A stretch of 64,000 nucleotides of DNA from Escherichia phage SelmaRatti: sequence record MZ501103. One strand, 5' to 3'. A program made the translations under genes and the position numbers. Position 1 is the first letter of the stretch, and the number at the start of each line of letters is the position of its first letter. Below are positions 5,740 through 42,059 of this stretch, piece by piece. Below the pieces are notes generated by a model. It saw only the letters and a list, made by a program, of their open reading frames with translations, searched no databases and was not told the origin of the DNA.

Positions 5740-7259
5740 ATATCACTGGCCTGTTCACCTGTTGAATTTTCAGCTTTGTCTTTCTTAGCACGTTTAGGTT
5801 GAGCCGACTTATCCTTCTCAATAGGGATAACGAACTCAGCTTCCATTTGAGATATATCTTCCATTGCTAGGTTGGTAGTGTTATCCATCCGCAAGGTTTC
5901 CCAGTTCATTTTAGGCATAAACTTCACGCTATCAGAAGAACGAGTCTTAACGAAGTCAAACATAATAGCACCTTGACCATTATCAGCTTTTGCAGCATTA
6001 AGATTAGCAGCCATGTCTGCGGAATCAAGAATCCCCTTTGACATACGTGTTCTACCGTCTTGATCGATCTGGTAAGGAGCTACACCAGCCACGTTATGTT
6101 TCTGGCAAATAGATTTGAAAGACGAGCTAACAACCATCTGTTCTTTCCAGTCATACATATCAATGGTTTTAGAATCTGGAAGTCGGGTTTGGTTAATATA
6201 GTCCAGTAAAGCTACTGTAACTTTATCCCCATATCTAGCAACTAATTTATTTAATTCTACGTCAACTGTTGTAATAGACAGCTCAGGATCATAAACAATA
6301 ATCATAGGAGTATGTAGCTCATACCCTTCTATTAGCTTACTTTCCATATCGTAGAAATCACTCATCTTAGCCATTGTGTACTGTTTAACGAAGTTATCGA
6401 AAAGCTCTTCACCACCGTTAAACATCCTGGCTCTAGTTCTGGCTAATCTCAACAGAGCTGCACCTTCTAGAGTATTATTACGCATTGCTAGTGCTGATAC
6501 ACCAGCTAACATGGCTAGATTACGTCTAAATACTTCATGTTCTTTCATCTCAATTGAGAAGTATGGAGCAATATCTCCATTCAAATATTGCTGAACCTGT
6601 ATGTTTGAACAGATAATGGATTTACCGGTACCACGCCAACCACCAAGCAGTAACGTTTCTGTGCGAGCTAAACCAATTTGAGCGTCGAACTCATTACAAA
6701 TACCAAGAGCGATTAAGTTCAGTTTGGTATCTTCTTCTCTCTGGAAAATACGCATGTTATCTGCGTTGAATACTTTTCCAGTATTCGTTACTTTCTCTTC
6801 TAATTTTAAGTGAAGGGAGGCAACTCGGTTAAGAATTTCTCCCTGATCCAGCATTGTTAAATCTTGAAGCACGTCTGTTTCTAGAAGCTTCAGGAATAAA
6901 TCCTGTGTATACTCGGCTTCTAGGACTTCAAGTGCCTGTTCCATGCTAACTTCTGGAATTTGAGTGTTAGCTAAGACGACTAGAGCTTGAGAAAGGCGGG
7001 CGTTCCTATTAGCCTCAAGCATCAGTGCGTCAATGGACGGCATTGTGTTATATTTTTTATAATAATTCTGGACGGCTTGGTAAATTGAGGAGAAAGCGTC
7101 ATTAAAATGATCTTTATGCAGTTTTGAGAATGTTTCCAATGCTATTTGCTTCTGTTCGGAAGCTAGAAGCATCTTCAACACTACAGCTTGCACGTTAAAC
7201 AAGGTCATTCTCCTTTGCACGCTTTCGTGCCTTCTAAATGCAAAAAGGGGAAGGAGCAT
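5736..7259 (-). CDS. replicative helicase (DnaB-like)
   Basis: Walker A GGWRGTGKS; length 507 aa; adjacent to primase; C-terminal tail ...NSTGEQASDI. Confidence 0.8.
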   Translation of the reverse strand: MLLPLFAFRRHESVQRRMTLFNVQAVVLKMLLASEQKQIALETFSKLHKDHFNDAFSSIYQAVQNYYKKYNTMPSIDALMLEANRNARLSQALVVLANTQIPEVSMEQALEVLEAEYTQDLFLKLLETDVLQDLTMLDQGEILNRVASLHLKLEEKVTNTGKVFNADNMRIFQREEDTKLNLIALGICNEFDAQIGLARTETLLLGGWRGTGKSIICSNIQVQQYLNGDIAPYFSIEMKEHEVFRRNLAMLAGVSALAMRNNTLEGAALLRLARTRARMFNGGEELFDNFVKQYTMAKMSDFYDMESKLIEGYELHTPMIIVYDPELSITTVDVELNKLVARYGDKVTVALLDYINQTRLPDSKTIDMYDWKEQMVVSSSFKSICQKHNVAGVAPYQIDQDGRTRMSKGILDSADMAANLNAAKADNGQGAIMFDFVKTRSSDSVKFMPKMNWETLRMDNTTNLAMEDISQMEAEFVIPIEKDKSAQPKRAKKDKAENSTGEQASDI

Positions 7260-18915: not shown

Positions 18916-20742
18916 TTATTTAAGATTTAAGTGTTTTACTCTACCAAGCACTTCTTTTTGTTTCCCAGAATTGAAAGGCCTACTGCCCGGGGATCCCAGG
19001 TACCCGCAAACCCTACGTGTAACCTCTATTTCTTCAGATCCACAACCCGGACATACAAACCCACGTTCAGAAGCAACAGATTCACCCATATATCCGCAGT
19101 TGAAACACTCATCAATTGGTATATTAACACCAATATAATGGCTACATTCTAGCCCCTTATCCACCACATACTCAAGAGCTTTGTGGAACTTTTTCATTTG
19201 AGGTAGTTCCACAAATGATATATTACCACCATTAGCTATTTTGGTAAAATGAGCTTCGTACTCAAATTTAGTATCTGGGGCTACTTTCTCTCTTACGTCC
19301 AAATGGTGACTATTAGTAAGATAGCCTTTATCTGTTAACCAAGAATACTCTGGGAACCTACGTTCTAGTAATTTATTAAAACGATTACATAGAGACTCAC
19401 TAGGAGTAGCATACAAGCTAAACCCAAGATTAGTCTCATTAGCTTTAACTTCGCAACGATTTTTTAGGTGAGTGAGAACTTCCTCTGTAAATTCAATACA
19501 ATCCCTATGGGTTTGTGGTAGACCAAACATTATTTGGCACATCTCATAGACCCCAATGTATCCAAGAGATACAGAAGATCTACCCTCAAAAATAGGCCAT
19601 ACATACTCTTCCCCATCTAAACGCACACCAAAACCCCCGTGCATATAAAGAATAGGGGCTTGTTTAGCCTTCACTTTCTTAAGTCTATTTAAGAAAAAAT
19701 CATGAGCTTCAAAAGCCTCATCCACATATTTGTCCAGAATATCCCAGAAATCTTCAAAAACCCCATCTGCCTCAGCAGCAACCATAGGTAGATTAATAGA
19801 CACTACACCTAAATTATTGCGCCCTGCAATTTCTCCGGAGGGGATAGCAGATAAAAAGCTACGACAACCCATAGGTGCTTTAAAATCACCAGTAACAGCT
19901 ACAACTTTCTCGTAACTTAAATAGTCCGGGTACATACGGGTAGCAGAACACTCAAGTGCTAGCTGTTTTATATCGTAGTTAGGGTCGCCTGGATTTTTAT
20001 TTAACCCTTCTTTAACTGAGAATACTAGTTTAGGGAAGATAGGGGTTGACTCAGCAGCACCTAAACCTTTAATACGGTTTTGGAGGATGGCTTTCTGAAT
20101 CATCCTTTCCTCCCACCCCTGTCCTAGCCCAAAGCCAAGCGTAACAAAAGGAGTCTGTCCATTAGAGTTAAATAATGAATTAGTTTCATACTCTAGGGCT
20201 TGGAATGCGTCATAACACTCTTTTTCAGTAAGTTCAGTAGCATATACAGCAGCTTTCCTTTCATCCTTGAGCCAACGTAGACCACGACCCAGATGTTTAT
20301 TGTAAGACTTTCTGACATACGGGGCTAGAACCTCATCGATACGATCAATAGAGGTGCCACCATACTGAGCACCAGATACTTGGGCAATAATCTGAGCAGT
20401 GATTGCACATGCAGTAGTTATGGATTTAGGAGTTTCAATATTTGCATTACCAATTTTAGTACCATTCTTCAGCATGCTACCAAGGTCTACTAAGCAACAG
20501 TTAGTGTACCCCTGTGCTCTGTAATCCATATCATGAATGTGTATCTTACCTAGATTATGGGCGTCTAACAGGTGTTTAGGTAACTCTTGCGATACTAAAT
20601 ACTTGTTAACTTCCCCAGCTAATAAGTCTCTTTGAGTATGGAACATCTCACTAGGTTTATTAGCATTATTATGCTGTAAATCCTTATCCGCAGTTAGAGT
20701 GAGCAGACCTTTGCAATTCTCAATTAATTCATTCTCTGTCAT
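18916..20742 (-). CDS. nrdD: anaerobic ribonucleoside-triphosphate reductase
   Basis: C-terminal Cys cluster CFNCGY...CPGCG and glycyl-radical motif RRVCGYLG; 608 aa. Confidence 0.85.
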   Translation of the reverse strand: MTENELIENCKGLLTLTADKDLQHNNANKPSEMFHTQRDLLAGEVNKYLVSQELPKHLLDAHNLGKIHIHDMDYRAQGYTNCCLVDLGSMLKNGTKIGNANIETPKSITTACAITAQIIAQVSGAQYGGTSIDRIDEVLAPYVRKSYNKHLGRGLRWLKDERKAAVYATELTEKECYDAFQALEYETNSLFNSNGQTPFVTLGFGLGQGWEERMIQKAILQNRIKGLGAAESTPIFPKLVFSVKEGLNKNPGDPNYDIKQLALECSATRMYPDYLSYEKVVAVTGDFKAPMGCRSFLSAIPSGEIAGRNNLGVVSINLPMVAAEADGVFEDFWDILDKYVDEAFEAHDFFLNRLKKVKAKQAPILYMHGGFGVRLDGEEYVWPIFEGRSSVSLGYIGVYEMCQIMFGLPQTHRDCIEFTEEVLTHLKNRCEVKANETNLGFSLYATPSESLCNRFNKLLERRFPEYSWLTDKGYLTNSHHLDVREKVAPDTKFEYEAHFTKIANGGNISFVELPQMKKFHKALEYVVDKGLECSHYIGVNIPIDECFNCGYMGESVASERGFVCPGCGSEEIEVTRRVCGYLGSPGSRPFNSGKQKEVLGRVKHLNLK

Positions 20743-21634
20743 TGATTATTTCCTCGATAAACTTTATAGCTACTTTTGGTTCAATATTGAAGAATTCCGT
20801 AGCACCGTCAAAATCTTTGTACTGGCAATTCTGCTCTTTAAAGTAGTTATGGGCTAATTTTTCTATTAGAACTGCACCACTATATTCTCCAATTTCAAAT
20901 ACTTTAATTATTTCCAAATCAGTAAGGTGGCTACTAGACCTAATATGTAGAAGTCTACGCTCTGGATTGTTAGATCTACCTATTTTAACTCCGTGTGATG
21001 GGCTATGCATAACATATATCTTAGTACTTTCTAAATCTCTATAACTACAGTAAGGACAACCATTCCCTCTTAATACAGATCCTGGAGTAGCTTCCCACCT
21101 ATGCCCTGCACCACAAAGAAAGGCGGTCTTAGTATTCGCATTACTATACTCACCCACTATTCTGATATTTCTGGCAGCAAGACGATCATTTATAGTATTA
21201 ACACTAAGTTTCTGTTTATTAGCAGCACAAGATGGGCAGCCACTACCTCTATTAATTATACTATTAAGTGTAGTAGCCCACTCATGACCACAAACACACC
21301 TAAATTTAGTATTTATATCAGCACTATTTTTATAGCCGTTCAACAATGTAATACCTCTGTCCTGTAATATAGTATTAATTTTATCAATATCTAGTTTACG
21401 GCTACTAATAGAGCAAGTATGACACTTGGTCTTTCCATTCCTAATGGCGTCAAATTTAGCTGTCCATTGATGACCGTATTCGCACTGATACGTATGCCTA
21501 TACCTAGAATTTTGATATGGCTTATCCACCATAGTAAAACCACGCTCGGCTAGGCATTTATCTACTTCTTCTTGAGTTAATTTTTTCGGCATTCCACTTC
21601 TCCACAGAATTTTTACACCTATTATACTAAACAT
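20729..21634 (-). CDS. zinc-ribbon repeat + T5orf172/GIY-YIG-like domain protein (homing-endonuclease-like)
   Basis: Three C..GH.W...C..C repeats and C-terminal IYVMHSPSHGVKIGRSNNPERRL. Confidence 0.6.
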   Translation of the reverse strand: MFSIIGVKILWRSGMPKKLTQEEVDKCLAERGFTMVDKPYQNSRYRHTYQCEYGHQWTAKFDAIRNGKTKCHTCSISSRKLDIDKINTILQDRGITLLNGYKNSADINTKFRCVCGHEWATTLNSIINRGSGCPSCAANKQKLSVNTINDRLAARNIRIVGEYSNANTKTAFLCGAGHRWEATPGSVLRGNGCPYCSYRDLESTKIYVMHSPSHGVKIGRSNNPERRLLHIRSSSHLTDLEIIKVFEIGEYSGAVLIEKLAHNYFKEQNCQYKDFDGATEFFNIEPKVAIKFIEEIINDRE

Positions 21635-22872: not shown

Positions 22873-22906
22873 AGGCCTGGGTATGAAAATGCTCGGGCCT
22901 TTTCTA
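22873..22906 (+). terminator. hairpin terminator upstream of nrdA
   Basis: GC-rich imperfect stem then ttttct; shares cgggccttttctat with the 44216 terminator. Confidence 0.4.
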
Positions 22907-22987
22907 TCAGAAAATTTTATTTGCCAAATGACTGAGAATAAAGTAAACTATTTCCTAAATCCTGATAACTATAAAAAGGAAAGCCAA

Positions 22988-25900
22988 ATGAGCCATCGCA
23001 TTGAAAAAGTAATTAAACGTGACGGTACTGTAGAAGACTTTGCTCCTGAAAAACTCAATGGTTGGGCAGAGTATGGTTGCAAAACAGTTGATGTAAGTTG
23101 GTCAGCCATTACTATGGCTGCTCAAAAAACCCTACCTAAAGGGGTTGTAGATTCCGACACTCTTATGGACGCATTAATTAAAGCTGCTGAAAGTCTTATC
23201 AAAGATAACCCAGCATACGATGTGCCAGCAAAGGAATTACGTCTTGCGCAAATGCGTAAGCGCCTTTATGACTCTTTCGAACCACCTTCTCTACGCTTCT
23301 TCCATGACCACATGGTTAGCGTAGGTACATGGGAAGACATGAGTGCATGGATTACCGATGAGCAATTTGAAGCTCTGAATCAGGTTATCGACCATGATCG
23401 TGACCGTCTTTTTACTAGTGGTGGGCTGAAGCAGTTCTTTGATAAGTATTCACGTCGTAACATAGCCACTGGTGAAATTTACGAAACCCCTCAATTCGCC
23501 TATATGGGTATGGCAATGGCGATGTTATCTCAACCTAACTGGACAATTCTAGATGCAATCGATCTCTACAATGCAATGTCGCTCCACAAGATCAACGTTC
23601 CTACGCCGCCATTGGTTGGCTTGCGCTCTAGTGACCGTGGATTTGCTAGTTGCTGCCTCGTGGATTCCACTGACACATTGGATTCAATCGACACAGCAGA
23701 GCACATCGTCTTCAAAATGGTCGCAGCCAGAGCGGGAATCGGGTATCATCTTGAAAGCAGATCAATTGCTGATCCGGTGCGAAATGGGGCATTCCCGCAT
23801 TCCGGAAAACTGCCATATTATCGACACATTGACCGCTCAGTAAAGGCCAATACTCAGCAAACTCGTGGTGGTTCTGCTACAGTGTCTTATCCATACTTCG
23901 ACCCTGAAATCATTCAATTGATGCAGGTTAAGCAACAACGTGCTACAGATGAGAATAAAATCGATAAGATGGATTATTCTCTGAGCTTTAACAATCTTTT
24001 GTTAAAACGTTATCTTAAAAACGAAGATATTACGCTAATGTCATACTTCTATGCTCCAGAAGTTCATGAAGCGTTTTATAGTGATGACGAGGCTAAATTT
24101 GAAGAAATCTACGTGGCAGCGGAGAAACGTGTGGCATCTCTTACAAAAATCGACCACGAAGGAAAAACAGTTCCAGCAGCTCCTAAAGTCTCTGCAAAAG
24201 AAATCCTAGATACTTGGCTACGTATCCGAATGGAAACAGGACGTATGTACGCTCACCACATCGGGGAATCTAATCGTCACGGTAACTTTCTTGATCCAAT
24301 CCGTATGACTAACCTTTGTGTAGCTCCAGAAACAAAAATTTTAACCAAAAATGGTAACATAGAGATTATTGATTTAGTTGGTAAAGAAGTAGAGATTTGG
24401 AACGGGCAAGAATGGTCAACAGTTATCCCTGCTAAAACTGGGGAAGCTCAGGAGTTGATGAAAATCACATTCTCTGATGGATCTACTATTGAATCTACTC
24501 TTTATCATAAGTTCTACCACCAGCCCAAATATGTAAGAGAGGATCGTAGTACCTCCTTCAAACAGGGTCTAGAAGAGGTACGAGCAGTAGACTTGCAAGT
24601 AGGTATGAAAATGCCTAAATTTAGTAATCCTATTGTAGATCATGGAAATATGGTACTAAAATCTCCTTATACTAACGGTTTCTTCACTGGAGATGGAACT
24701 TATGGAAGACATGGAGAACCTAAGCTGTACTTCTATGAAAAAGGAGGCAAACTACCATTAGTGGATAAAATTGACGCAAAGATTCAGGGAAGTGGATTAC
24801 TGGACAGCACAGGTAGACTGAGTTATATTGTTAAGTCTGATTTAATGCCGAAGTATTTTGTACCTGGCCCAGAATACACTATTGATAGCCGTATCAAATG
24901 GTTAGAGGGATATTTAGATGCAGATGGCTGCATACAGAAAAATGGCACAACCCCTAGTATTGTGGTTGCTTCGGCAGAGCCTGATTTTCTAAGTAAAGTG
25001 AAGGATTTGTTACTAGAATTGGGGATTACTAGCAAGATTATTTTAGGACGCCAAGAAGGTGACTACGAGTTACCAGATGGTACTGGTAGTAGTAGTAAAC
25101 TATACCACTGCAAGGAGACTAGTAGGCTTATTGTGGGGAGTAGTGGCTTCTGGAAACTTAAAGATTTAGGACTCTCTTTGGATAAAGAGAAACTCTTAAA
25201 CCTAACACGCCCCAATAGAGACGCAACCCGTTTTGTAACTGTAACTAACGTTGAGTTTACTGGTCGTATTAGTGATACCTATTGCTTTACAGAACCTAAA
25301 TTAAACTTGGGTGTATTTAATGGCATTTTAGCTGGTAACTGTGTAGAGATTACTCAGCCTACACGCCCGTTCCACCACATCACAGAGCTGTATAAGACAA
25401 AAGAGCAGCTTGATCAAATGAAGCCGGAGGATATTGGTGAAGTATCTCTGTGTAACTTAGGTGGTGTTGTACTTGGACGCATGGAATCTCTGGCTGAGTG
25501 GGAAAAAACTTGCTACATCCTTCTGAAATTCGTTGATACAATTATTGAAATTCAGGATTATCCGTTCCCAACTATGGAATATACGGCTAAGAAACGTCGT
25601 AATGTTGGTATTGGCCTGATGAACGCAGCAGGTGCAATGGCAGCAGAAGGTCTGGCTTATGAAGGTATTGAAGCCCGTAACTGGATTCACCGTGAGGCTG
25701 AAAAACTGTCTTACTTCCTGCATAAAGCCTCTGTACGCCTAGCTAAAGAACAGGGCGCATGTGAGTGGTTTGATCGTACTAAACCATCTAAAGGAATTCT
25801 GGTAATCGACACTTACAAGAAAACTGTTGATGAACTGGTATCCGTAGGTCTAGAAATGGATTGGGAATCTCTGCGTGCAGATATTCTGAAATACGGTATG

Positions 25901-26344
25901 CGTAACTCTGTTCTGACTGCGCAGATGCCTGGAGAAAGCTCTTCTGTACTATTGGGTGTTACCAACTCAATTGAGCCACCTCGTAAGATTGTATCTATCA
26001 AGGGTAGTGCAGTGAATAAAGTAATTGCAATTGCTCCAGGTGCAACCGATTGGGATACTCTCATGAGCTATAAACTGGCCTATGATATTGATCGCACTGA
26101 GTGGATCAAGTGGAACGCCGTTTACCAAAAATTCTTGAGTCAGTCATCAAGTTTCCAGATGTATTATGATTACTCTAAATTCGAGAATGAAATCATCCCT
26201 GGCCCAGTAGTAGTTCGTGACTTTATGACTGCGGTTAAGTATGGTATAAAAACCTGGTATTATGCTAACTTTAACACTGCGAATGGTGGAGGAGCTGGTG
26301 AAGAGGCGGCAACAGGTTGTGCATCAGGCGGTTGTCAGTTATAA
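22988..26344 (+). CDS. nrdA: ribonucleotide reductase large subunit (class Ia) with in-frame intein
   Basis: MSHRIEKVIKRDG matches NrdA N-terminus; C-terminal CxxC tail; RBS aaaaggaaag; upstream part of the 22883 ORF is a terminator/leader. Confidence 0.9.
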   Translation: MSHRIEKVIKRDGTVEDFAPEKLNGWAEYGCKTVDVSWSAITMAAQKTLPKGVVDSDTLMDALIKAAESLIKDNPAYDVPAKELRLAQMRKRLYDSFEPPSLRFFHDHMVSVGTWEDMSAWITDEQFEALNQVIDHDRDRLFTSGGLKQFFDKYSRRNIATGEIYETPQFAYMGMAMAMLSQPNWTILDAIDLYNAMSLHKINVPTPPLVGLRSSDRGFASCCLVDSTDTLDSIDTAEHIVFKMVAARAGIGYHLESRSIADPVRNGAFPHSGKLPYYRHIDRSVKANTQQTRGGSATVSYPYFDPEIIQLMQVKQQRATDENKIDKMDYSLSFNNLLLKRYLKNEDITLMSYFYAPEVHEAFYSDDEAKFEEIYVAAEKRVASLTKIDHEGKTVPAAPKVSAKEILDTWLRIRMETGRMYAHHIGESNRHGNFLDPIRMTNLCVAPETKILTKNGNIEIIDLVGKEVEIWNGQEWSTVIPAKTGEAQELMKITFSDGSTIESTLYHKFYHQPKYVREDRSTSFKQGLEEVRAVDLQVGMKMPKFSNPIVDHGNMVLKSPYTNGFFTGDGTYGRHGEPKLYFYEKGGKLPLVDKIDAKIQGSGLLDSTGRLSYIVKSDLMPKYFVPGPEYTIDSRIKWLEGYLDADGCIQKNGTTPSIVVASAEPDFLSKVKDLLLELGITSKIILGRQEGDYELPDGTGSSSKLYHCKETSRLIVGSSGFWKLKDLGLSLDKEKLLNLTRPNRDATRFVTVTNVEFTGRISDTYCFTEPKLNLGVFNGILAGNCVEITQPTRPFHHITELYKTKEQLDQMKPEDIGEVSLCNLGGVVLGRMESLAEWEKTCYILLKFVDTIIEIQDYPFPTMEYTAKKRRNVGIGLMNAAGAMAAEGLAYEGIEARNWIHREAEKLSYFLHKASVRLAKEQGACEWFDRTKPSKGILVIDTYKKTVDELVSVGLEMDWESLRADILKYGMRNSVLTAQMPGESSSVLLGVTNSIEPPRKIVSIKGSAVNKVIAIAPGATDWDTLMSYKLAYDIDRTEWIKWNAVYQKFLSQSSSFQMYYDYSKFENEIIPGPVVVRDFMTAVKYGIKTWYYANFNTANGGGAGEEAATGCASGGCQL
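24317..25339 (+). mobile_element. LAGLIDADG intein in NrdA (341 aa) at the catalytic Cys
   Basis: Exteins join to MTNL|CVEITQP (conserved NLCxEI); intein starts CVAPETKIL, ends ...GILAGN|C; LEGYLDADGCIQ motif. Confidence 0.8.
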
Positions 26345-27596: not shown

Positions 27597-28126
27597 TTAC
27601 AGCAATGTATGCAGTTGGGCCGAATGGAGAGTTCGGCCTCCGAGGTAAACTTCCCTGGGGTTCCTTCAAAGAAGAACTAGATGCTTTCTATTCTCAACTG
27701 GACGTGTTGAATCCAGATAACATCATCATTGGTGCGGGTACTTATTTAGCACTTCCAGAAGTTGTTCGGCAACGTATGATTGGAGAATCTGACCTCTTTA
27801 TTCGTGCGGATCGTCCTCTGCCTGATGATATTAAACATGGTATTTACACTCCAATTTCTAAGATTGGGGATACATTACCTACATTCTTAAAAGATCAACA
27901 GACAGTGGTTTTAGGTGGCGCAACATTACTGTACGAAATGTATATTCATGGACATATTGAAAGTGCTTTTGTATCAACAATCTTTAGTAATCAAAAACTA
28001 GAGGCAGATGTACATCTGGATAATATGATTCTAGATTACAACTATGAATCTACTCGTTTAGTTTACGCAACCGGCGCAAACAGTGATAACAGCCTGCGAT
28101 TTGTACAGGAATTGGTTACTTATTAA
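27593..28126 (+). CDS. dihydrofolate reductase
   Basis: 177 aa, overlapping start with nrdB stop, directly upstream of thyA. Confidence 0.65.
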   Translation: MITAMYAVGPNGEFGLRGKLPWGSFKEELDAFYSQLDVLNPDNIIIGAGTYLALPEVVRQRMIGESDLFIRADRPLPDDIKHGIYTPISKIGDTLPTFLKDQQTVVLGGATLLYEMYIHGHIESAFVSTIFSNQKLEADVHLDNMILDYNYESTRLVYATGANSDNSLRFVQELVTY

Positions 28127-28959
28127 TGAAACAGTATATTGATTTAATTAATAAAGTTTTATCTGAGGGAACTCACGTGTCTGACCGGACAGGTGTAGGT
28201 ACTATCTCTTCCCTAAATAATATTGTCTCTTTTGACCTTACTAAAGGGTTTCCAGCAGTAACAACAAAAGCACTAGCGTGGAAATCCGTGGTAGGGGAGT
28301 TGTTGTGGTTCCTCTCAGGATCCACTAACTTGTATGATCTAGAAGAGTATACTCATGGGACTAGAGGAGAGAAGCGTACTATCTGGCATCCTAATTATGA
28401 AAAACAAGGGGTCGAAAAAGGCTACACTGAAGGTTATCTGGGATATATTTATGGGAAAACCTGGAGAGACTTCTTCGGCACAGACCAGATTATGAAACTA
28501 ATCGAGGATATCAAATCCGATACTTTTCATAATAGAAAAATGGTAGTCTCAGCATGGAATCCTGCAAAACTTGACGACGTTGTGCTTTCCCCCTGCCACG
28601 TAATGTTCTCCGTAAACCAAAGAGATGGACACCTACACTTAACATGGTACCAGGTTAGTTGTGATGTATTTCTGGGATTACCATTTAATATAGCTAGCTA
28701 TGCCTTACTCTGTCATATTTTAGCTGCACTCACAGGAAAGAAACCTGGGTCAGTAACGGGACATCTTGTGGACACTCATATTTACTTAAATCACCTAGAC
28801 CAAGTAAAGGAGCAAGTAACTAGAGAACCCCTGGAGCTACCTAGACTAGTGCTACCAAACTTCTCTTCCTTAGAAGATCTTCTGGCCCTAACACCCAAAG
28901 ACTTTATCCTGGAAGAATATAAACATCACCCTAAATTAACTGGTAAAATGGCAGCATGA
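28126..28959 (+). CDS. thyA: thymidylate synthase
   Basis: Active-site VLSPCHVMF (PCH motif); 277 aa. Confidence 0.85.
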   Translation: MKQYIDLINKVLSEGTHVSDRTGVGTISSLNNIVSFDLTKGFPAVTTKALAWKSVVGELLWFLSGSTNLYDLEEYTHGTRGEKRTIWHPNYEKQGVEKGYTEGYLGYIYGKTWRDFFGTDQIMKLIEDIKSDTFHNRKMVVSAWNPAKLDDVVLSPCHVMFSVNQRDGHLHLTWYQVSCDVFLGLPFNIASYALLCHILAALTGKKPGSVTGHLVDTHIYLNHLDQVKEQVTREPLELPRLVLPNFSSLEDLLALTPKDFILEEYKHHPKLTGKMAA

Positions 28960-29729
28960 TTTACATCTATAGTATAACTCAGTTATCTACTGGAAGACAG
29001 TACGTTGGATCGACTAAGGATATTGAGGCTAGAAAGCGTAAACATTTTTACTCACTAAGTAAGGGGAACCACCATAACGCTTTTCTACAGAGAGCTTATG
29101 ATAAAACCGGAAAGCAAGACTTTGTATTTGACATCTTAGATACTACTGAAGAAGTAGATCAGCAGTTCCTACTAGAAGAAGAGTGGGCTAAGGAGCTGGG
29201 AGCAGAGTTCAACATAGGTAGTTACGGTGGTGGGGATAATCTCACAAATAATCCTCGAAGAGAGGAGATTATTAAGAGAATTGGTGAGAGTGTTAGAAAG
29301 CATATAGCGTCCTTATCTGAAGAAGAAAGAAAAGCCCGGTGGAGTAGACCAGGTGAGCTAAACTATAACTGGAAGGGAGGAGTATCTACTCGCTCAAAAA
29401 CATGTATTGATTGTGGTTCCCTACTAGCCCTTAATAACACTAATGGGGAGTACTGTAATAGTTGCAGGGATCGAACAGGTGAGAATAACCCCTTTTATGG
29501 GAAGAAGCATACTGAAGAGGCTCTGAGCAAGATGTCTCAGGCTTCTAAGCAGTACCAAGAAAGTATTAGAGAGGGAAAGACACCCCTTCCTACCCACTTT
29601 AAGGCAGTACGTGTGGATGGTGTGGAATACGTTAGTATGAGTGCAGCAGCTATAGCATTGGGGTGTTCCACAGCGACTATAGGTAATAGAGTTCGTTCAC
29701 CTAAGTTCCCGACGTATGAGTTTGTATAA
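28956..29729 (+). CDS. GIY-YIG homing endonuclease
   Basis: N-terminal IYIYSITQLSTGRQYVGSTKDIEARKRKH; C-terminal zinc-finger-like CIDCGS...CNSCRD. Confidence 0.75.
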   Translation: MIYIYSITQLSTGRQYVGSTKDIEARKRKHFYSLSKGNHHNAFLQRAYDKTGKQDFVFDILDTTEEVDQQFLLEEEWAKELGAEFNIGSYGGGDNLTNNPRREEIIKRIGESVRKHIASLSEEERKARWSRPGELNYNWKGGVSTRSKTCIDCGSLLALNNTNGEYCNSCRDRTGENNPFYGKKHTEEALSKMSQASKQYQESIREGKTPLPTHFKAVRVDGVEYVSMSAAAIALGCSTATIGNRVRSPKFPTYEFV

Positions 29730-37455: not shown

Positions 37456-37530
37456 CGGGGTGTAGTCTAAGGGAGAGGCAGGAGTCTTCTAAATTCCTTT
37501 ATGCAGGTTCGAATCCTGTCACCTCGGCCA
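37456..37530 (+). tRNA. tRNA-Arg (anticodon TCT)
   Basis: Hand-folded cloverleaf: acceptor cggggtg/cacctcg, anticodon loop cttctaa, T-arm gcagg-ttcgaat-cctgt, encoded CCA. Confidence 0.7.
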
Positions 37531-37564
37531 ATTTTATTAACTGTAACTAAAACAAAGGAAATAT

Positions 37565-38512
37565 ATGTTTAATACTAAAAATATGAAAGAACTAACTTCT
37601 GAGCAGAAAGTAATTCGTACTATTAAACGTTGGGGGATTGGTGCTGTAGTTGGTTTAGCAGGTTTAATCCTAGCTTTTAATTCATATACTATTGTTTCTG
37701 ATGGTACGGTTAAAACTCAAACATTCCTGGGTAAAGTAGACCCTAATCCAGTATTACCTGGTTTCCATATTGTAAACCCGTTTGCATCTTTCGATACTTT
37801 CAGTACAAAAGATATTGCTGTAAAATTAGATAAACTTCAGGTTCCTAGTCAGGATAAGTTTAAATCCACTGTTGACCTGACTGTTATGTTACAATTTGAT
37901 GGTTCTAAGGCACCGATCAACCGTATTAATGCAGGTACTCAGGATCAGGCTCTAGATAAGTACGTAACTGAAAAATTACTGTCCACTATTCGTGAGTTCG
38001 GTAAGTCTGTACCTAAAGCACAAGATTTATTTGATGCTAAAATTCAGGCTCAATTGCAAACTGCAATTCAACAGGAAGTTGAAGAGTATGCACGCCCATA
38101 TGGTTACACAGTTAAGCAGGTATTCCTTCAGGATATTACTTTGCCACCGGTAATCATGGAACAGGTACAGAATACCAAAGTTCGTGAAGAACAGGTTAAT
38201 GCTGCTAAAGCTGAATTAGCTCGTGTTGAACAGGAAGCACAGCAAAAAGTTAAACAAGCAGAAGCAGATCGTGAAGCTCGCAACAACCAAGCTATCGCTA
38301 ATGAACGTGACGCAGATGCTAAACTGTACGCAGCTAAGAAAGAAGCTGAAGCTAACGCCGCACTGCAACGTACCATTACTCCTGAGATGATTCGTTGGAA
38401 ACAACTGGAAGTTGAGATGATTCGTGCTCAGAAATATCAAGGTGGTGTGCCGCAGACTGTGGTTGGCACTGGTTACGATGGCCAGATGATTATGGATATG
38501 CGTAATAAGTAA
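37565..38512 (+). CDS. SPFH/band-7 membrane protein
   Basis: N-terminal TM helix, band-7-like core, C-terminal coiled coil. Confidence 0.55.
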   Translation: MFNTKNMKELTSEQKVIRTIKRWGIGAVVGLAGLILAFNSYTIVSDGTVKTQTFLGKVDPNPVLPGFHIVNPFASFDTFSTKDIAVKLDKLQVPSQDKFKSTVDLTVMLQFDGSKAPINRINAGTQDQALDKYVTEKLLSTIREFGKSVPKAQDLFDAKIQAQLQTAIQQEVEEYARPYGYTVKQVFLQDITLPPVIMEQVQNTKVREEQVNAAKAELARVEQEAQQKVKQAEADREARNNQAIANERDADAKLYAAKKEAEANAALQRTITPEMIRWKQLEVEMIRAQKYQGGVPQTVVGTGYDGQMIMDMRNK

Positions 38513-38588
38513 TATCCACGCGTAATATTCGAAGTAAGCCCTGTGTTTCCTGGAGAGCGCAGGCAATTAAATGAATTTATATAAAATT

Positions 38589-38621
38589 TTGCTTGTTTTT
38601 GCGCGTAAAATTTTATATAAT
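38589..38621 (+). promoter_or_regulatory. sigma70-type early promoter
   Basis: TTGCTT then TATATAAT; exact -10 register ambiguous. Confidence 0.45.
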
Positions 38622-38651
38622 ATTTACTCAAATTTGGAAGAATACGTTAAC

Positions 38652-39023
38652 ATGAATACTAATAAGAAAGGAAATATAGGGCTAGGAAGTGCGATTGCTC
38701 ACTTTACTAGTAAAGGTTTGATTGTTTCACTACCTTTAAATGACAGTCAAGATTACGATCTAATCGTAGATATGGGGGGTACTCTAAATAAAGTTCAGGT
38801 GAAATATACCTCCCAAAAGGCACCCTCTGGTAGTTATATTCTAGCTATGAGAAGTACAAGTGGCACTTCTAGAGTAGCGTATAAGACTCTTAATGAAACT
38901 AATATTGATTTAGTGTTTGTGTATACTGATCAGTATCAGTTGTTAATTCCAATTAAGAAATTAACTAATAAAAATCAAACTACCCTTACTAAAGAATTAG
39001 TACAAGAATTCCGAGTTATATAA
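38652..39023 (+). CDS. hypothetical protein, possible PD-(D/E)xK nuclease fold
   Basis: ATG 38652 chosen because the longer ORF starts inside the promoter; DYDLIVD...KVQVK motif. Confidence 0.4.
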   Translation: MNTNKKGNIGLGSAIAHFTSKGLIVSLPLNDSQDYDLIVDMGGTLNKVQVKYTSQKAPSGSYILAMRSTSGTSRVAYKTLNETNIDLVFVYTDQYQLLIPIKKLTNKNQTTLTKELVQEFRVI

Positions 39024-39025
39024 AA

Positions 39026-39115
39026 GGAAGAATACGTTAAAAGGTAAACGAGCTGATTGCTAATCAGTAGCTCTGAAATATAGCCTTGTGGGTTCGATTC
39101 CCACTTCTTCCGCCA
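39026..39115 (+). tRNA. tRNA-Ser (anticodon GCT), type II
   Basis: Acceptor ggaagaa/ttcttcc, anticodon loop ttgctaa, long variable arm, T-arm gtggg-ttcgatt-cccac, encoded CCA. Confidence 0.7.
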
Positions 39116-39121
39116 AACATA

Positions 39122-39196
39122 GGGTCGGTAGCTTAAAGTTAAAGCGGTGGCCTCATAAGCTAACGAGTAGGAGTTAGATTCTCCTCCGACCCACCA
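39122..39196 (+). tRNA. tRNA with anticodon CAT (Met or Ile2)
   Basis: Acceptor gggtcgg/ccgaccc perfect, anticodon loop ctcataa, T-arm aggag-ttagatt-ctcct, encoded CCA. Confidence 0.6.
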
Positions 39197-39211
39197 AATT
39201 AAGGAAATAAG

Positions 39212-39379
39212 ATGTATAGACATCCACCTCCGCCAACACGTCGTTCTAGAGAAGTTATCCTCATGGAATTGACTAAAAACTTCAAGGCAACTCTTGAAGA
39301 TAGAGATTTAGGCACAGATGAAGATGTTGATTTCATCTGTAAACTATTAAAAATGAAACTGGAGAAACAACATGGCTAA
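39212..39379 (+). CDS. small hypothetical protein (55 aa)
   Basis: RBS aagga; stop overlaps next ORF start. Confidence 0.3.
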   Translation: MYRHPPPPTRRSREVILMELTKNFKATLEDRDLGTDEDVDFICKLLKMKLEKQHG

Positions 39380-39578
39380 TCCTGAAATTACCGCACAACG
39401 TTTCATGCTTAAAGGCATGATTGCTGAGGCAGGTATGACTCAAGAAGTTGTAGATTTTCAAAAGCAATTCCTCAATATTCTCACTCAAGCCAAAGAGCTA
39501 GGAGAGAAAGAACATGGAGCAGCAATTATGGCTATATCTCTTATTAGTCTAGACTTGGCTGAAGAATCAGGAGTTTAA
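39372..39578 (+). CDS. hypothetical protein (68 aa)
   Basis: ORF. Confidence 0.4.
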   Translation: MANPEITAQRFMLKGMIAEAGMTQEVVDFQKQFLNILTQAKELGEKEHGAAIMAISLISLDLAEESGV

Positions 39579-39608
39579 CTCCTCCAAGCAGAAATTTTAA
39601 AAATGTAC

Positions 39609-39638
39609 TTGCCTTTTGCTTTAAATTTCTGATATAAT
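39609..39638 (+). promoter_or_regulatory. sigma70-type early promoter
   Basis: TTGCCT-18-TATAAT. Confidence 0.5.
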
Positions 39639-39649
39639 AGTTATATAAA

Positions 39650-39943
39650 TTGATGAGAGGAATCAGAATGTCAAAACGTGTTACAGCAACTGGTATTGAA
39701 AGTGTAATCTGCAAATCCTGGGAAGACAGGGAAGGTGAGATTGAATGGCTTTATTTCTATGATGTAGAACTTCTACCGGAAGTTAAAGCTAAATGTATTG
39801 AAGCTGGTATGGCTCCTGATGCTACTGCTGATGTTGAGATTATCATGAATAAGCTAGAGGGTCTGGTAATCACTGTTAGTGATGAGGGCGAAGAAGTCTT
39901 CGAACTTCCGTTCTCCTTAACTGTCACTCCTAAGTTCGACTAA
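39650..39943 (+). CDS. hypothetical protein (97 aa)
   Basis: Promoter 39609-39638, RBS gagagg. Confidence 0.45.
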   Translation: MMRGIRMSKRVTATGIESVICKSWEDREGEIEWLYFYDVELLPEVKAKCIEAGMAPDATADVEIIMNKLEGLVITVSDEGEEVFELPFSLTVTPKFD

Positions 39944-39979
39944 CTAATACAGCACTGAGCAAGTTCTTCAAAATTTTAC

Positions 39980-40008
39980 TTGCTCAGTGCCATAAAACTT
40001 GATATAAT
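39980..40008 (+). promoter_or_regulatory. sigma70-type early promoter upstream of tRNA-Tyr
   Basis: TTGCTC-17-TATAAT; -35 lies inside an 11-bp inverted repeat. Confidence 0.5.
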
Positions 40009-40071
40009 AGTTATCTAATTTGGAAACATATTTAAAAGTGTTTAAACTAGTATTTGAATACTTTTAAATGT

Positions 40072-40155
40072 GCATCGTTGGCAGAATGGCTATTGCAGCG
40101 GTCTGTAAATCCGTGCCCTTCGGGGTTGGTGGTTCAAATCCATCACGATGCACCA
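40072..40155 (+). tRNA. tRNA-Tyr (anticodon GTA), long variable arm
   Basis: Acceptor gcatcgt/acgatgc perfect, anticodon loop ctgtaaa, variable hairpin gccc-ttcg-gggt, encoded CCA. Confidence 0.7.
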
Positions 40156-40172
40156 AATTAAAGGAGCTGCTG

Positions 40173-40445
40173 ATGCATCCTGAAAACTTCTTTATTTACT
40201 GCGAGGATAAGTAGCTGAAACGTAGAATTAACAAAGTCTATCATTATCGTGCTAGTCAACAGCCTTATATATACGCTTTTGACGGTGATCACATTCCACT
40301 AGAACAATTATCCTGTGATTACATGATATTGAAGAACTTTGACGAGACAAAGATCTCAAGCGTTCATAATCGACAGAATCCATTAACGTGGAAATATAAG
40401 AAGAAAAAGAAAGGCATCAAATTCTTAAAAAATGTAGTTGCTTAG
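40173..40445 (+). pseudogene. ORF with strong RBS interrupted by in-frame TAG at codon 14 (40212-40214); pseudogene or amber read-through
   Basis: aaggag then ATG 40173; 13 codons, TAG, then 76 further sense codons in frame. Confidence 0.3.
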
Positions 40446-40466
40446 TTTCCAAAAGTTCTGTATAAT
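40438..40466 (+). promoter_or_regulatory. sigma70-type early promoter upstream of tRNA-Cys
   Basis: TTGCTT-17-TATAAT then cataaattgaa. Confidence 0.55.
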
Positions 40467-40514
40467 AATTACATAAATTGAACTGGAGAAGCAACATGAC
40501 AGAACAAGGTAAAT

Positions 40515-40587
40515 CGACCGTTGGCTGAATTGCTTAGGTGAAGGATTGCAAATCCTTTTTATGTGAGTTCAAATCTCATGCGGTCGT
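40515..40587 (+). tRNA. tRNA-Cys (anticodon GCA)
   Basis: Acceptor cgaccgt/gcggtcg (one G-U), anticodon arm aagga-ttgcaaa-tcctt perfect, T-arm gtgag-ttcaaat-ctcat. Confidence 0.65.
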
Positions 40588-40596
40588 CTAAATTTT

Positions 40597-40680
40597 AGGG
40601 TCGTTAGCCAAGTGGTTTGGCGGCGGATTGTTAATCCGTGTCGAAAGACAACGTAGGTTCGATTCCTGCACCCGCTGCCA
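40597..40680 (+). tRNA. tRNA-like gene, candidate Asn (GTT); acceptor stem imperfect
   Basis: D-arm, anticodon arm gcgga-ttgttaa-tccgt, T-arm and CCA fold well, but acceptor pairs only 4/7 and an extra gtc-gaaa-gac hairpin sits in the variable region. Confidence 0.35.
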
Positions 40681-40700
40681 TCTTAATAGAGGATTTCGAA

Positions 40701-40865
40701 ATGAAAGTATTTCGATTAGTAGTAAGTGATCGACGTTCTAGCAAAGATCGTTCGAAGTATACCTTAGCCCACTATGGTAAAGATGAAAAAGAAGTAATGG
40801 TGGAGTTTGGGATTAATCATCGCTACTTAGAAGTTTACTCTATTAAGGAAGTTTATCCGTATTAA
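40701..40865 (+). CDS. small hypothetical protein (54 aa)
   Basis: RBS agagga then ATG 40701; the longer ORF would start inside the preceding tRNA. Confidence 0.35.
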   Translation: MKVFRLVVSDRRSSKDRSKYTLAHYGKDEKEVMVEFGINHRYLEVYSIKEVYPY

Positions 40866-40943
40866 GGGTCGTTAGCTCAATTGGTTAGTAGCACTTGCCT
40901 TTTAAGCAATAGGTTGAAGGTTCGAGTCCTTCACTACCCACCA
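40866..40943 (+). tRNA. tRNA-Lys (anticodon TTT)
   Basis: Acceptor gggtcgt/actaccc (one mismatch), anticodon loop cttttaa, T-arm gaagg-ttcgagt-ccttc, encoded CCA. Confidence 0.6.
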
Positions 40944-40950
40944 AATTTTT

Positions 40951-41024
40951 GCTCGGTTAGTTTAATGGGAGAACCCCGTCTTTACACGGCGGTTGCGATA
41001 GTTCGATTCTATCACCGAGTACCA
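40951..41024 (+). tRNA. tRNA-Val (anticodon TAC)
   Basis: Acceptor gctcggt/accgagt, D-arm gttt/gaac, anticodon arm ccgtc-tttacac-ggcgg, T-arm gatag-ttcgatt-ctatc, encoded CCA. Confidence 0.75.
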
Positions 41025-41043
41025 ATTAACTCAAAATAAGGAA

Positions 41044-41409
41044 TTGCAAATGCAATTATCAAGCAAGATTCAAGGTTATTTCGGTCATGTGACAATGGAG
41101 TTCGCTATCTCTAAAGGTTGGGATTTCGAGCAAGATCTAGCTGAGTTCTACAAAGATATTGATCTGAACGTACCGTATATGGGACTTTCTACTGGTCAGG
41201 AGATCACAGAAGCCGATGTATTCAAGGCAAGTCAAGGTGAGATAACACCTAGTTTTGCCACTTTTTGGAGTGGCTTCACAATTAAAGAAGAAGCTCCAGA
41301 TGATGATGTATTTATGCAAAGCATGCACTCTGGGAGTTCTGATATGTTATTTGTTAAAGATGTACGACATATCCAAGAAGTGGTAAAAACGTATTTGCAA
41401 AATGCTTAA
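41044..41409 (+). CDS. hypothetical protein (121 aa)
   Basis: ORF with RBS aaggaa. Confidence 0.45.
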   Translation: MQMQLSSKIQGYFGHVTMEFAISKGWDFEQDLAEFYKDIDLNVPYMGLSTGQEITEADVFKASQGEITPSFATFWSGFTIKEEAPDDDVFMQSMHSGSSDMLFVKDVRHIQEVVKTYLQNA

Positions 41410-41423
41410 TTTCTTGTTATAAT
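41395..41423 (+). promoter_or_regulatory. sigma70-type early promoter driving unannotated RNA region
   Basis: TTGCAA-17-TATAAT then tataaattgatg. Confidence 0.5.
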
Positions 41424-41756
41424 ATTTATATAAATTGATGCGAAAATAGCTGCCTAGATACCAGGTGTATGACGTCTACACTAGCAGAGCTACCGAAAAA
41501 GAGATCCTCAGGATAAACGTCGTAGCAAAATTAGTCTGGTATCCATCAATTTAGTTCACTAAGGTATTAGCTCGACCTAGGACTGGCTGCCAAAAAGCAC
41601 GACCCCTACGACTCGGGAGAAGTTCTAGATTAGTCCACTAGATTCAGCGGCAACTGAATAGTGTATCGGGTTTGTGAAGAGCGGCTATCCTCTACTGGCT
41701 AATGTATGAGGTTAGTACGCACACCGAGCTAATAGCCTTAGTAAACTAAAGAATTT

Positions 41757-41831
41757 GGGCGAATAGTGTCAGCGGGAGCACACCAGACTTGCAATCTGGG
41801 AGGGAGGGTTCGAGCCACTCTTTGTCCACCA
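41757..41831 (+). tRNA. tRNA-Ala (anticodon TGC)
   Basis: Acceptor gggcgaa/tttgtcc (G-U pairs incl. G3-U70), anticodon arm ccaga-cttgcaa-tctgg perfect, T-loop ttcgagc, encoded CCA. Confidence 0.6.
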
Positions 41832-41955
41832 AATTAAAAAGAATGCGCGCGATTGACGGAATAGGTATACGTGTAAGCCTTAGAAGTTGAATTTTGAGGG
41901 TTCGAATCCCATCGAGGCGTAACTGCCTGGTGTGATAGAGGCATCATCTTATTAT

Positions 41956-42046: not shown

Positions 42047-42059
42047 AAACAATTTATAA

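What the first reader, a model, noticed from the sequence alone, without database searches (positions are those of the whole stretch)
24317..25339. LAGLIDADG intein inserted at the catalytic cysteine of NrdA
The inferred exteins join as MTNL|CVEITQP, restoring the conserved NLCxEI active-site motif, so the +1 Cys used for splicing is the radical-site Cys. The intein carries LEGYLDADGCIQ and ends in Gly-Asn rather than the usual His-Asn, an atypical penultimate residue.
Basis: partly seen in the sequence, partly recalled or inferred. Interest (0 to 1): 0.6.

Follow-up and report, generated by a model that had tools for sequence, protein, structure and literature searches.

The report
Common-type intein in phage ribonucleotide reductase
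A T5-like phage carries a self-splicing protein insert (an intein with a homing-nuclease domain) exactly at the radical-forming cysteine of its ribonucleotide reductase. This is real, but it is the most common place for such inserts, and its odd-looking Gly-Asn ending is normal for this intein family.

Summary
Window 24317..25339 is a 341-codon in-frame insert in nrdA of a T5-like phage (Tequintavirus). About 440 related phages lack it and read MTNL|CVEITQP. The Cys after the insert aligns with E. coli NrdA C439, the thiyl-radical cysteine.

The insert has the expected intein features:
- Cys1, a block B T-x-x-H, and a block F Asp.
- Two LAGLIDADG motifs, each with its acidic residue.
- A C-terminal Asn followed by Cys.
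- A predicted fold that matches intein homing endonucleases (TliVMA, PI-SceI, PI-PfuI).

It is not unusual. Dassa et al. [quoted passage not shown] Homologous inteins sit at the same SNL|C…|CxE site in 338 phage records, including ICP1, phiCbK-like, SPbeta/phi3T, Staphylococcus, Acinetobacter and Rheinheimera phages. None of 31 sampled relatives has a penultimate His: 28 have Gly, followed by Asn or Gln. Near-identical copies (98% DNA identity) already exist, unannotated, in Salmonella phages SP3 and Kenya-K36/K42.

The intein is under purifying selection. It is less diverged at synonymous sites than its exteins, which is consistent with recent homing.

Verdict: a real, ordinary new member of a known intein family. 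Interest is low.

The parts
22883..26344 (+). nrdA precursor ORF (class Ia ribonucleotide reductase alpha subunit plus intein), 1153 codons as the longest ORF. The probable true start is the ATG at 22988 (MSHRIEKV), giving a 1118-aa precursor and a 777-aa mature protein.
   Evidence: One search lists the ORF. Ribonuc_red_lgC E=1e-112 spans the insert. TIGR02506 scores 569 bits against a cutoff of 341. AAGGA lies 7-8 nt upstream of the ATG at 22988. SP3 is annotated as starting at this Met, and the alignment to E. coli NrdA begins just downstream of it.
22988..24316 (+). N-extein, ending ...DPIRMTNL (the Asn corresponds to E. coli N437).
   Evidence: pN/pS is 0.004-0.008 against HildyBeyeler and K36.
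24317..25339 (+). Intein, 341 aa, CVAPETKILT...FNGILAGN.
24317..24346 (+). Block A (Cys1 nucleophile, CVAPETKILT).
   Evidence: C-V-x-x-x-T is conserved in all 15 family members. TIGR01445 matches intein aa 1-67.
24479..24517 (+). Block B (GSTIESTLYHKFY), with Thr61 and His64 forming the T-x-x-H motif.
   Evidence: T and H are invariant in the family alignment.
24665..24703 (+). LAGLIDADG motif 1 (PYTNGFFTGDGTY), with acidic residue Asp126.
   Evidence: Helix 117-126 in the model.
24893..24937 (+). LAGLIDADG motif 2 (IKWLEGYLDADGCIQ), with acidic residue Asp203.
   Evidence: LAGLIDADG_3 matches aa 194-280. Helix 189-203 in the model.
25268..25318 (+). Block F (ISDTYCFTEPKLNLGVF). Asp320 is present. 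The position that is His in about half of the relatives is Asn328 here.
25319..25342 (+). Block G (NGILAGN) plus the +1 Cys. The penultimate residue is Gly340, the terminal residue is Asn341, and Cys+1 corresponds to E. coli C439.
25340..26344 (+). C-extein, starting CVEITQP (C439 and E441 equivalents) and ending in the C-terminal redox pair CASGGC.

Best explanation
Window 24317..25339 encodes a class 1, endonuclease-containing (LAGLIDADG) intein. It belongs to the widespread allelic family that occupies the site just before the thiyl-radical cysteine of RNR alpha subunits. That family includes inteins of Vibrio phage ICP1 gp203, phiCbK-like Caulobacter phages and Bacillus SPbeta/phi3T bnrdE. 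By the literature it also includes the Chilo iridescent virus RNR intein.

Inferred mechanism: the precursor is translated as one chain. Cys1 makes a thioester with Leu-1. The +1 Cys, the future radical cysteine, attacks it to give the branched intermediate. Asn341 then cyclises to release the intein. This happens without the usual penultimate His, as in the rest of the family. An S-to-N shift yields mature NrdA with an intact N-L-C-V-E-I active site.

The nested double-motif LAGLIDADG domain probably cuts the empty nrdA allele (...ATGACWAACCTT|TGTGTWGARATT...) of co-infecting T5-like phages, and the intein is copied in by repair (homing).

Shown here: the anatomy, the site, family membership, the fold, purifying selection and the patchy distribution. 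Inferred: splicing and endonuclease activity.
For: The insert is exact relative to inteinless orthologues, and the +1 Cys aligns to E. coli C439. Cys1, T61-x-x-H64, Asp320 and Asn341|Cys are conserved across a 15-member alignment whose members are 23-53% identical to the window intein outside the T5-like group. NCBIfam intein_Nterm scores above its cutoff. The AF2 model has pLDDT 81.8 and pTM 0.81. Its best Foldseek hits are the TliVMA intein (E=1.5e-14), PI-SceI and PI-PfuI, followed by I-DmoI and mini-inteins for the sub-domains.

All 14 fetched phage homologues sit at the same SNL|C...|CxE site. 338 phage records hold homologues, all within RNR genes where annotated, and several are annotated as inteins.

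Intein pN/pS is 0.08-0.16 among the three T5-like copies. Extein pN/pS is 0.004-0.14. NrdA is therefore being maintained, which requires splicing.

Intein synonymous divergence (0.054, window vs K36) is lower than that of the N-extein (0.121, Fisher p=0.013) and the C-extein (0.228, p=3e-7). The window intein also sits in a HildyBeyeler-like distal C-extein, whereas SP3 and K36 have a distal C-extein only 83% identical. Both points are consistent with recent lateral spread.

Literature: this site is the most frequent RNR intein insertion point (PMC2677866). The CIV RNR intein splices with its native C-terminal Gln, and about 5% of functional inteins lack His G:6 (PMC4031507). [quoted passage not shown]
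Against: No splicing or cleavage experiment exists for this intein or its close T5-like copies. Both usual helper histidines are absent: the penultimate residue is Gly340, and the block F position that is His in about half of the relatives is Asn328. Pfam Intein_splicing and the NCBIfam C-terminal intein model did not reach threshold. The synonymous-site comparison rests on only 11-13 intein differences per pair, and T5-like genomes are mosaic anyway, so ordinary recombination could mimic homing. nrdA may be dispensable, since the phage also encodes NrdD and the host has its own RNR. That weakens the argument that the intein must splice, although strong extein purifying selection counters this.
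Confidence: 0.9

Rival explanations
1. The intein splices but its homing endonuclease is dead or weak. Its patchy distribution among T5-like phages would then reflect ordinary recombination and loss rather than active homing.
For: Only 4 of 445 T5-like records carry it, which suits an element that is not sweeping. Caulobacter and Brevundimonas family members have lost the acidic LAGLIDADG motif 1, so endonuclease decay does occur in this family. No flank markers are consistently linked to the intein at the junction.
Against: Both LAGLIDADG motifs keep their acidic residues (Asp126, Asp203). The endonuclease domain shows few non-synonymous changes. Intein synonymous divergence is lower than that of the exteins.
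Confidence: 0.3
2. The intein is degenerate and does not splice. The nrdA gene is then effectively inactivated, and the phage relies on the host RNR and its own anaerobic NrdD.
For: The penultimate His and the block F His are both missing. The phage encodes NrdD at 18916..20742. The literature notes decaying intein-ridden nrdA genes in Campylobacter phages (PMC3653736).
Against: The ORF is intact across 1153 codons. Extein pN/pS is 0.004-0.14 and intein pN/pS is 0.08-0.16. All nucleophiles and block B are intact. Gly-Asn or Gly-Gln ends 28 of 31 sampled relatives, in many independent phage lineages that keep intact RNR genes. A Gln-terminated RNR intein from CIV is reported to splice efficiently.
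Confidence: 0.05
3. The 341 residues are a native, non-excised insertion domain of this phage's NrdA.
For: None beyond the continuous ORF.
Against: The insert separates N437-L438 from C439-x-E441 of the active site and is absent from about 440 close orthologues. It has intein termini and a HINT plus LAGLIDADG fold.
Confidence: 0.01

Closest known systems
Vibrio phage ICP1 NrdA intein (gp203 / ORF203), annotated as an intein in GenBank HQ641347 and the MW794xxx records
   Same: It has the same insertion site (SSNL|C...|CQEI), the same architecture (HINT plus double LAGLIDADG, 328 aa), about 40% aa identity over the full length (E=3e-68), and a penultimate Gly.
   Different: It ends in Gly-Gln rather than Gly-Asn. 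Its host phage is a Mohonavirus, not a T5-like phage.
Unannotated inteins in NrdA of Salmonella phages SP3 (MG387042/NC_048001) and Kenya-K36/K42 (OQ291033/OQ291059)
   Same: Essentially the same element: 97.8-98.6% DNA identity, 97.7-98.8% aa identity, same site and same Gly-Asn end.
   Different: They have one fewer Ser in the SSS run, 3-7 further amino-acid changes, and a different distal C-extein background (83% identity). SP3 also carries a second intein upstream. None of the records annotates the intein.
phiCbK-like Caulobacter phage NrdA inteins (CcrColossus gp143, CcrMagneto gp109) and, by the literature, the Chilo iridescent virus (IIV-6) RNR intein
   Same: Same site and the same Gly-(Asn/Gln) C-terminus. 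They are annotated as intein mat_peptides. PMC3556154 remarks on the uncommon C-terminus and links it to IIV-6. The CIV RNR intein is reported to splice.
   Different: Only 26-29% identity. They are shorter (299-307 aa), and LAGLIDADG motif 1 has lost its acidic residue. CIV membership was not checked here by sequence.
Bacillus prophage SPbeta / phi3T bnrdE intein
   Same: Same site (FSNL|C...TGN|CSEV) and a Gly-Asn end.
   Different: The host is a class Ib NrdE. Identity is 23%, and the intein is 385 aa with extra insertions.
Salmonella phage Shivani NrdA intein (Cys292-Asn595), the published intein of a T5-like NrdA
   Same: Same host protein and phage group (PMC4342426). The equivalent intein in SP3 also ends in Gly-Asn.
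   Different: It occupies a different insertion site (QQ|C...CGN|S, about 150 residues upstream of the radical Cys) and is an unrelated-looking 304-aa intein. It is absent from the window.
PI-PfuI, PI-SceI and TliVMA inteins (solved structures)
   Same: Two-domain HINT plus LAGLIDADG fold (Foldseek E from 1e-14 to 1e-11, TM about 0.6). PI-PfuI is also an RNR intein (from general knowledge).
   Different: 10-17% sequence identity. There was no detectable sequence match to any PDB chain. They occupy other insertion sites and have canonical His-Asn ends (from general knowledge).

Membership tests
Class 1 intein (HINT protein-splicing element) | An in-frame insert that is absent from orthologues, with flanks that rejoin into conserved host sequence | tested here: met
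   (HildyBeyeler reads MTNL|CVEITQP). (about 440 inteinless records). (the NLCxEI motif of E. coli NrdA is restored).
Class 1 intein (HINT protein-splicing element) | N-terminal Cys or Ser nucleophile (block A) | tested here: met
   Cys1 at 24317..24319. TIGR01445 scores 34 bits against a cutoff of 24.5.
Class 1 intein (HINT protein-splicing element) | Block B Thr-x-x-His | tested here: met
   T61-L-Y-H64, invariant in the family alignment.
Class 1 intein (HINT protein-splicing element) | C-terminal Asn (or Gln/Asp) followed by a +1 Cys, Ser or Thr | tested here: met
   Asn341 | Cys.
Class 1 intein (HINT protein-splicing element) | Penultimate His (G:6). This is typical but not obligatory; about 5% of functional inteins lack it. 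| tested here: not met
   Gly340. The same holds in all 31 sampled relatives. PMC4031507 shows the feature is dispensable in some inteins.
Class 1 intein (HINT protein-splicing element) | HINT fold with N- and C-terminal halves flanking the inserted domain | tested here: met
   AF2 model with pLDDT 81.8. Foldseek hits to the TliVMA, PI-SceI and PI-PfuI inteins, and to the Ssp DnaB mini-intein and hedgehog Hint for the sub-domain.
Class 1 intein (HINT protein-splicing element) | Autocatalytic excision and extein ligation | not testable with these tools
   Indirect evidence only: purifying selection on exteins and intein.
Double-motif LAGLIDADG homing endonuclease | Two LAGLIDADG helices, each ending in a catalytic Asp or Glu | tested here: met
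   FFTGD126G and YLDAD203G. Helices 117-126 and 189-203. Pfam LAGLIDADG_3 E=2e-13. I-DmoI and I-OnuI fold hits.
Double-motif LAGLIDADG homing endonuclease | Site-specific cleavage of the empty allele, and homing | not testable with these tools
   Circumstantial only: patchy distribution and lower synonymous divergence of the intein than of the exteins.
Allelic intein family at the RNR thiyl-radical cysteine (ICP1 / phiCbK / SPbeta type) | Insertion immediately N-terminal to the radical Cys (N-L|C-x-E) | tested here: met
   The site is described in PMC2677866.
Allelic intein family at the RNR thiyl-radical cysteine (ICP1 / phiCbK / SPbeta type) | Full-length sequence homology to other members | tested here: met
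   tblastn gives E from 4e-102 (PM135) to 2e-8 (phi3T) over 99-100% of the intein.
Allelic intein family at the RNR thiyl-radical cysteine (ICP1 / phiCbK / SPbeta type) | Characteristic C-terminus F-N-G-I-L-(T/A)-G-(N/Q) | tested here: met
   FNGILAGN.
Class Ia ribonucleotide reductase alpha subunit (host protein) | Catalytic residues equivalent to C225, N437, C439, E441 and C462, plus the C-terminal Cys pair | tested here: met
   Alignment to 4r1r with E=1e-142 shows SC, NLCVEI and the LC of GEVSLCNL. The C-terminal CASGGC is seen. TIGR02506 scores above its cutoff.

The most novel reading that the evidence does not exclude
In the T5-like and Proteus PM135 members, both histidines that usually assist Asn cyclisation are missing: the penultimate His is Gly and the block F His is Asn. 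In addition, both splice-junction nucleophiles are cysteines, one of which is the future thiyl-radical Cys. The most novel reading not excluded has two parts. First, this clade may use a different catalytic arrangement for C-terminal cleavage. Second, a Cys1-Cys+1 disulfide may make splicing redox-gated, so that maturation of the aerobic RNR is coupled to the redox or oxygen state of the infected cell, in a phage that also carries the anaerobic NrdD.
Probability: 0.1. Interest if true: 0.55.

Novelty: new member of a known kind. Interest (0 to 1): 0.2.

Why it matters
The practical value is in annotation. The nrdA genes of this phage and of SP3 and Kenya-K36/K42 should be annotated as intein-containing precursors with a 777-aa mature product. 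T5-like NrdA can host at least two different inteins, at the Shivani site and at the radical-Cys site.

The finding adds one more lineage to a very large allelic intein family whose conserved Gly-(Asn/Gln) terminus shows that the penultimate His is dispensable across a whole clade. It does not open a new question. Insertion at this cysteine and splicing without the penultimate His are both documented.

Tried and rejected
- A phmmer search of the intein against all PDB chain sequences found nothing at E<=1. The link to solved inteins had to come from the fold search.
- Pfam Intein_splicing/Hint models and the NCBIfam C-terminal intein model did not match the intein at the thresholds used. Only intein_Nterm and LAGLIDADG_3 did.
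- I looked for synonymous substitutions at the junction that are linked to the intein and might mark co-conversion or target immunity. None were consistent: win/SP3 have ACT and K36/Hildy have ACA, and GTA/GTT and GAG/GAA are mixed.
- The intein DNA is absent from 5,426 complete E. coli genomes, so there is no prophage or host reservoir there.
- The two Lazarevic papers on SPbeta RNR inteins are not held in the library. The claim that the SPbeta intein splices therefore rests on my memory only and is not used as evidence.
- One paper search failed because a term was too short. Two scripts failed to find locus files because several records are stored per file.
- I considered and rejected the idea that the insert is native NrdA sequence, and the idea that the boundary lies elsewhere. 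The alignment leaves a two-residue (Cys-Val) ambiguity that only the intein rule resolves.

Full report
**What is in the sequence**

The window comes from a T5-like phage (Tequintavirus). Its nrdA region matches 445 phage records at 80-99% DNA identity, almost all of them Salmonella or Escherichia T5-like phages. The gene order is nrdD, a T5orf172-type ORF, phoH, nrdA, nrdB, frd, thyA, a GIY-YIG ORF, then RNase H.

The nrdA ORF (22883..26344, +) is uninterrupted for 1153 codons. Its likely true start is the ATG at 22988, which is preceded by AAGGA. At 24317 the reading frame leaves NrdA sequence (…DPIRMTNL) and enters CVAPETKILT…. At 25339 the insert ends …FNGILAGN, and NrdA resumes at 25340 with CVEITQP.

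**Is it really an insert, and where?**

I aligned the window NrdA with that of Escherichia phage HildyBeyeler, which has no insert, and with those of Salmonella phages SP3 and Kenya-K36, which have it. The alignment shows a clean 341-column gap in HildyBeyeler between MTNL and CVEITQP. Only 4 of the 445 records (SP3 in two records, Kenya-K36 and Kenya-K42) cover the insert. The rest cover about 71% of the query in two pieces.

phmmer of the inteinless protein against the PDB gives E. coli NrdA at E=1e-142. In that alignment the Cys after the insert is C439, flanked by N437 and E441. C225, C462 and the C-terminal Cys pair are also present. The intein therefore sits directly N-terminal to the thiyl-radical cysteine, and that cysteine is the +1 splicing nucleophile.

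**Is it an intein?**

The sequence and structure evidence agrees.
- NCBIfam intein_Nterm (TIGR01445) matches residues 1-67 above its curated cutoff.
- Pfam LAGLIDADG_3 matches residues 194-280 at E=2e-13.
- A 15-sequence family alignment shows invariant Cys1, Thr61-x-x-His64 (block B) and Asp320 (block F). It also shows two LAGLIDADG motifs, FFTGD126G and YLDAD203G, and a conserved C-terminus F-N-G-I-L-(T/A)-G-(N/Q).
- An AlphaFold2 model (pLDDT 81.8, pTM 0.81) has beta-rich N- and C-terminal parts around an alpha/beta core with two long helices at the LAGLIDADG motifs.
- Foldseek against the PDB returns the TliVMA intein (E=1.5e-14), PI-SceI and PI-PfuI as top hits. I-DmoI and I-OnuI match the endonuclease core, and the Ssp DnaB mini-intein and hedgehog Hint match the splicing core.

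**How special are the site and the Gly-Asn end?**

They are not special. tblastn of the intein finds homologues in 338 phage records: Rheinheimera 115, Vibrio 92, Caulobacter 39, Bacillus 15, Staphylococcus 14, Corynebacterium 11 and others. Wherever features are annotated, the matches lie under RNR genes.

I fetched 14 representatives spanning 23-53% identity. Every one is inserted at the same (S/T)-N-L|C … |C-x-E site. Several are already annotated as inteins: ICP1 ORF203/gp203, CcrColossus gp143 and CcrMagneto gp109.

Dassa et al. [quoted passage not shown] RNR is the second most common bacterial intein host, with 211 inteins (PMC4760082).

For the C-terminus, the 15 phage representatives (window included) split into 8 Gly-Asn, 6 Gly-Gln and 1 Met-Asn. 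Among 16 metagenomic relatives, 8 end in Gly-Asn, 6 in Gly-Gln and 2 in Lys-Gln. None has His. The phiCbK genome paper already remarked on this uncommon terminus and linked it to invertebrate iridescent virus 6 (PMC3556154). The review by Mills et al. records that about 5% of functional inteins lack His G:6. It also records that the CIV RNR intein splices better with its native Gln than with Asn (PMC4031507). The "atypical" penultimate Gly is therefore a clade character, not an anomaly of this copy.

One detail goes a little further. The block F position that is His in about half of the family is Asn in the window and in Proteus phage PM135. Both usual helper histidines are thus missing here.

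**Is it functional and mobile?**

Among the three T5-like copies, intein pN/pS is 0.08-0.16 (11-13 synonymous against 3-7 non-synonymous differences). The amino-acid changes fall outside the conserved blocks. Extein pN/pS is 0.004-0.14. An NrdA split at its active site would be dead unless spliced, so this selection argues for splicing.

Intein synonymous divergence between the window and K36 is 0.054. For the N-extein it is 0.121 (Fisher p=0.013) and for the C-extein 0.228 (p=3e-7). The window's distal C-extein is HildyBeyeler-like (98% identity), while SP3 and K36 carry an 83%-identical variant. The intein is therefore younger than, and partly uncoupled from, its host gene. Homing predicts this, but the counts are small and T5-like genomes are mosaic. 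Endonuclease activity itself is an inference from intact motifs.

**Comparison with what is known**

The closest relatives are the unannotated, 98%-identical inteins of SP3 and Kenya-K36/K42. Next come Proteus phage PM135 (53% aa), then Acinetobacter, Staphylococcus, Aeromonas, Vibrio (including ICP1) and Rheinheimera phages (about 40-43%). Caulobacter phages are at 26-29% and SPbeta/phi3T at 23%.

The one published intein of a T5-like NrdA that my searches found is in Salmonella phage Shivani (Cys292-Asn595; PMC4342426). It lies at a different site, the one occupied by SP3's additional intein (QQ|C…CGN|S), and is absent from the window. I found no paper describing the radical-Cys intein in T5-like phages. 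I therefore rate this a new, unannotated member of a well-known kind.

**Verdict**

The "atypical Gly-Asn" point is downgraded to a family trait. The finding is ordinary and mainly of annotation value.

A residual, low-probability point of interest remains: how Asn cyclisation is catalysed with neither helper His, and whether the Cys1/Cys+1 pair at the radical site makes splicing redox-sensitive. Interest 0.2.

Noticed in passing
window 2771..3847 (- strand), inside ORF 1142..4786: The DNA polymerase (family A, 1214 codons) carries a second intein of 359 aa, CLTHDSQVKM...KVGVVHN|CKDTDA, with a canonical His-Asn end. Pfam gives LAGLIDADG_2 at E=2.7e-8 and a weak Intein_splicing match. The inteinless pol of phage Baret reads PYA|AKDTDA, so the +1 residue is Ala in the empty allele and Cys in the occupied one. 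Seven of 505 phage records carry it: Kenya-K36/K42/K44, Gostya9 (2 records) and smaug (2 records).
   Followed up: partly
L002 (Salmonella phage SP3) about 2479..3390, within the nrdA CDS 1606..5874: SP3 NrdA has two inteins. Besides the radical-Cys one, a 304-aa intein sits at QQ|C...HTTVCGN|S. This is the site published for phage Shivani, and it also ends in Gly-Asn with a Thr-to-Ser change at +1. It is absent from the window.
   Followed up: partly
proteins P0002, P0003, P0010 (metagenomic NrdB): Full-length relatives of this intein (34-36% identity for P0002 and P0003 over 100% of the query; 34% over 66% for P0010) occur in the RNR beta subunit. They are inserted at EAVH|C...FNGILTGQ|SETYS, right after a probable iron-ligand His. 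The same intein lineage has therefore colonised active-site positions of both RNR subunits.
   Followed up: no
proteins P0017, P0020, P0023, P0024 (NrdA on contigs from 8 kb up to 265 kb): Mini-intein versions of about 133 aa, with no endonuclease domain, sit at the same NL|C...FNGILAGN|C(S/T)EITLPT site. They have the same Ala-Gly-Asn end as the window. The block F His/Asn position varies (KRNLG vs KRHLG) between close relatives.
   Followed up: no
window 28956..29729 (+): A free-standing GIY-YIG homing-endonuclease-like ORF (GIY-YIG, NUMOD3, and I-TevI-like zinc finger and DNA-binding domain). Its start overlaps the stop of thyA (28126..28959).
   Followed up: no
window 20729..21634 (-): An ORF with repeated treble-clef zinc fingers (DUF4379, CapR) and a C-terminal T5orf172/MUG113 nuclease-like domain. 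It lies between phoH and nrdD and overlaps the nrdD start. It is probably another free-standing homing-endonuclease-type gene. HildyBeyeler and K36 have nrdD next to phoH here, and HildyBeyeler instead has a putative HEG between nrdA and nrdB that the window lacks.
   Followed up: no
window 25079..25093 (intein aa 255-259): The window has one more Ser (GTGSSSK) than SP3 and K36 (GTGSSK). This is a 3-nt indel inside an AGT AGT AGT run and looks like replication slippage in a surface loop of the endonuclease domain.
   Followed up: no
window 22883..22990: The longest nrdA ORF starts at 22883, but the likely start is the ATG at 22988, preceded by AAGGA. Database records disagree on the start: K36 uses the long form, HildyBeyeler uses MTENK and SP3 uses MSNRIEKV. 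A GC-rich inverted repeat (GGCCTGGG...CTCGGGCC) lies just upstream at about 22874..22899.
   Followed up: no
window 37456..42611: A cluster of 10 tRNA genes (Arg, Ser x2, Met, Tyr, Cys, Lys, Val, Ala, His) on the + strand, as is typical of T5-like genomes.
   Followed up: no
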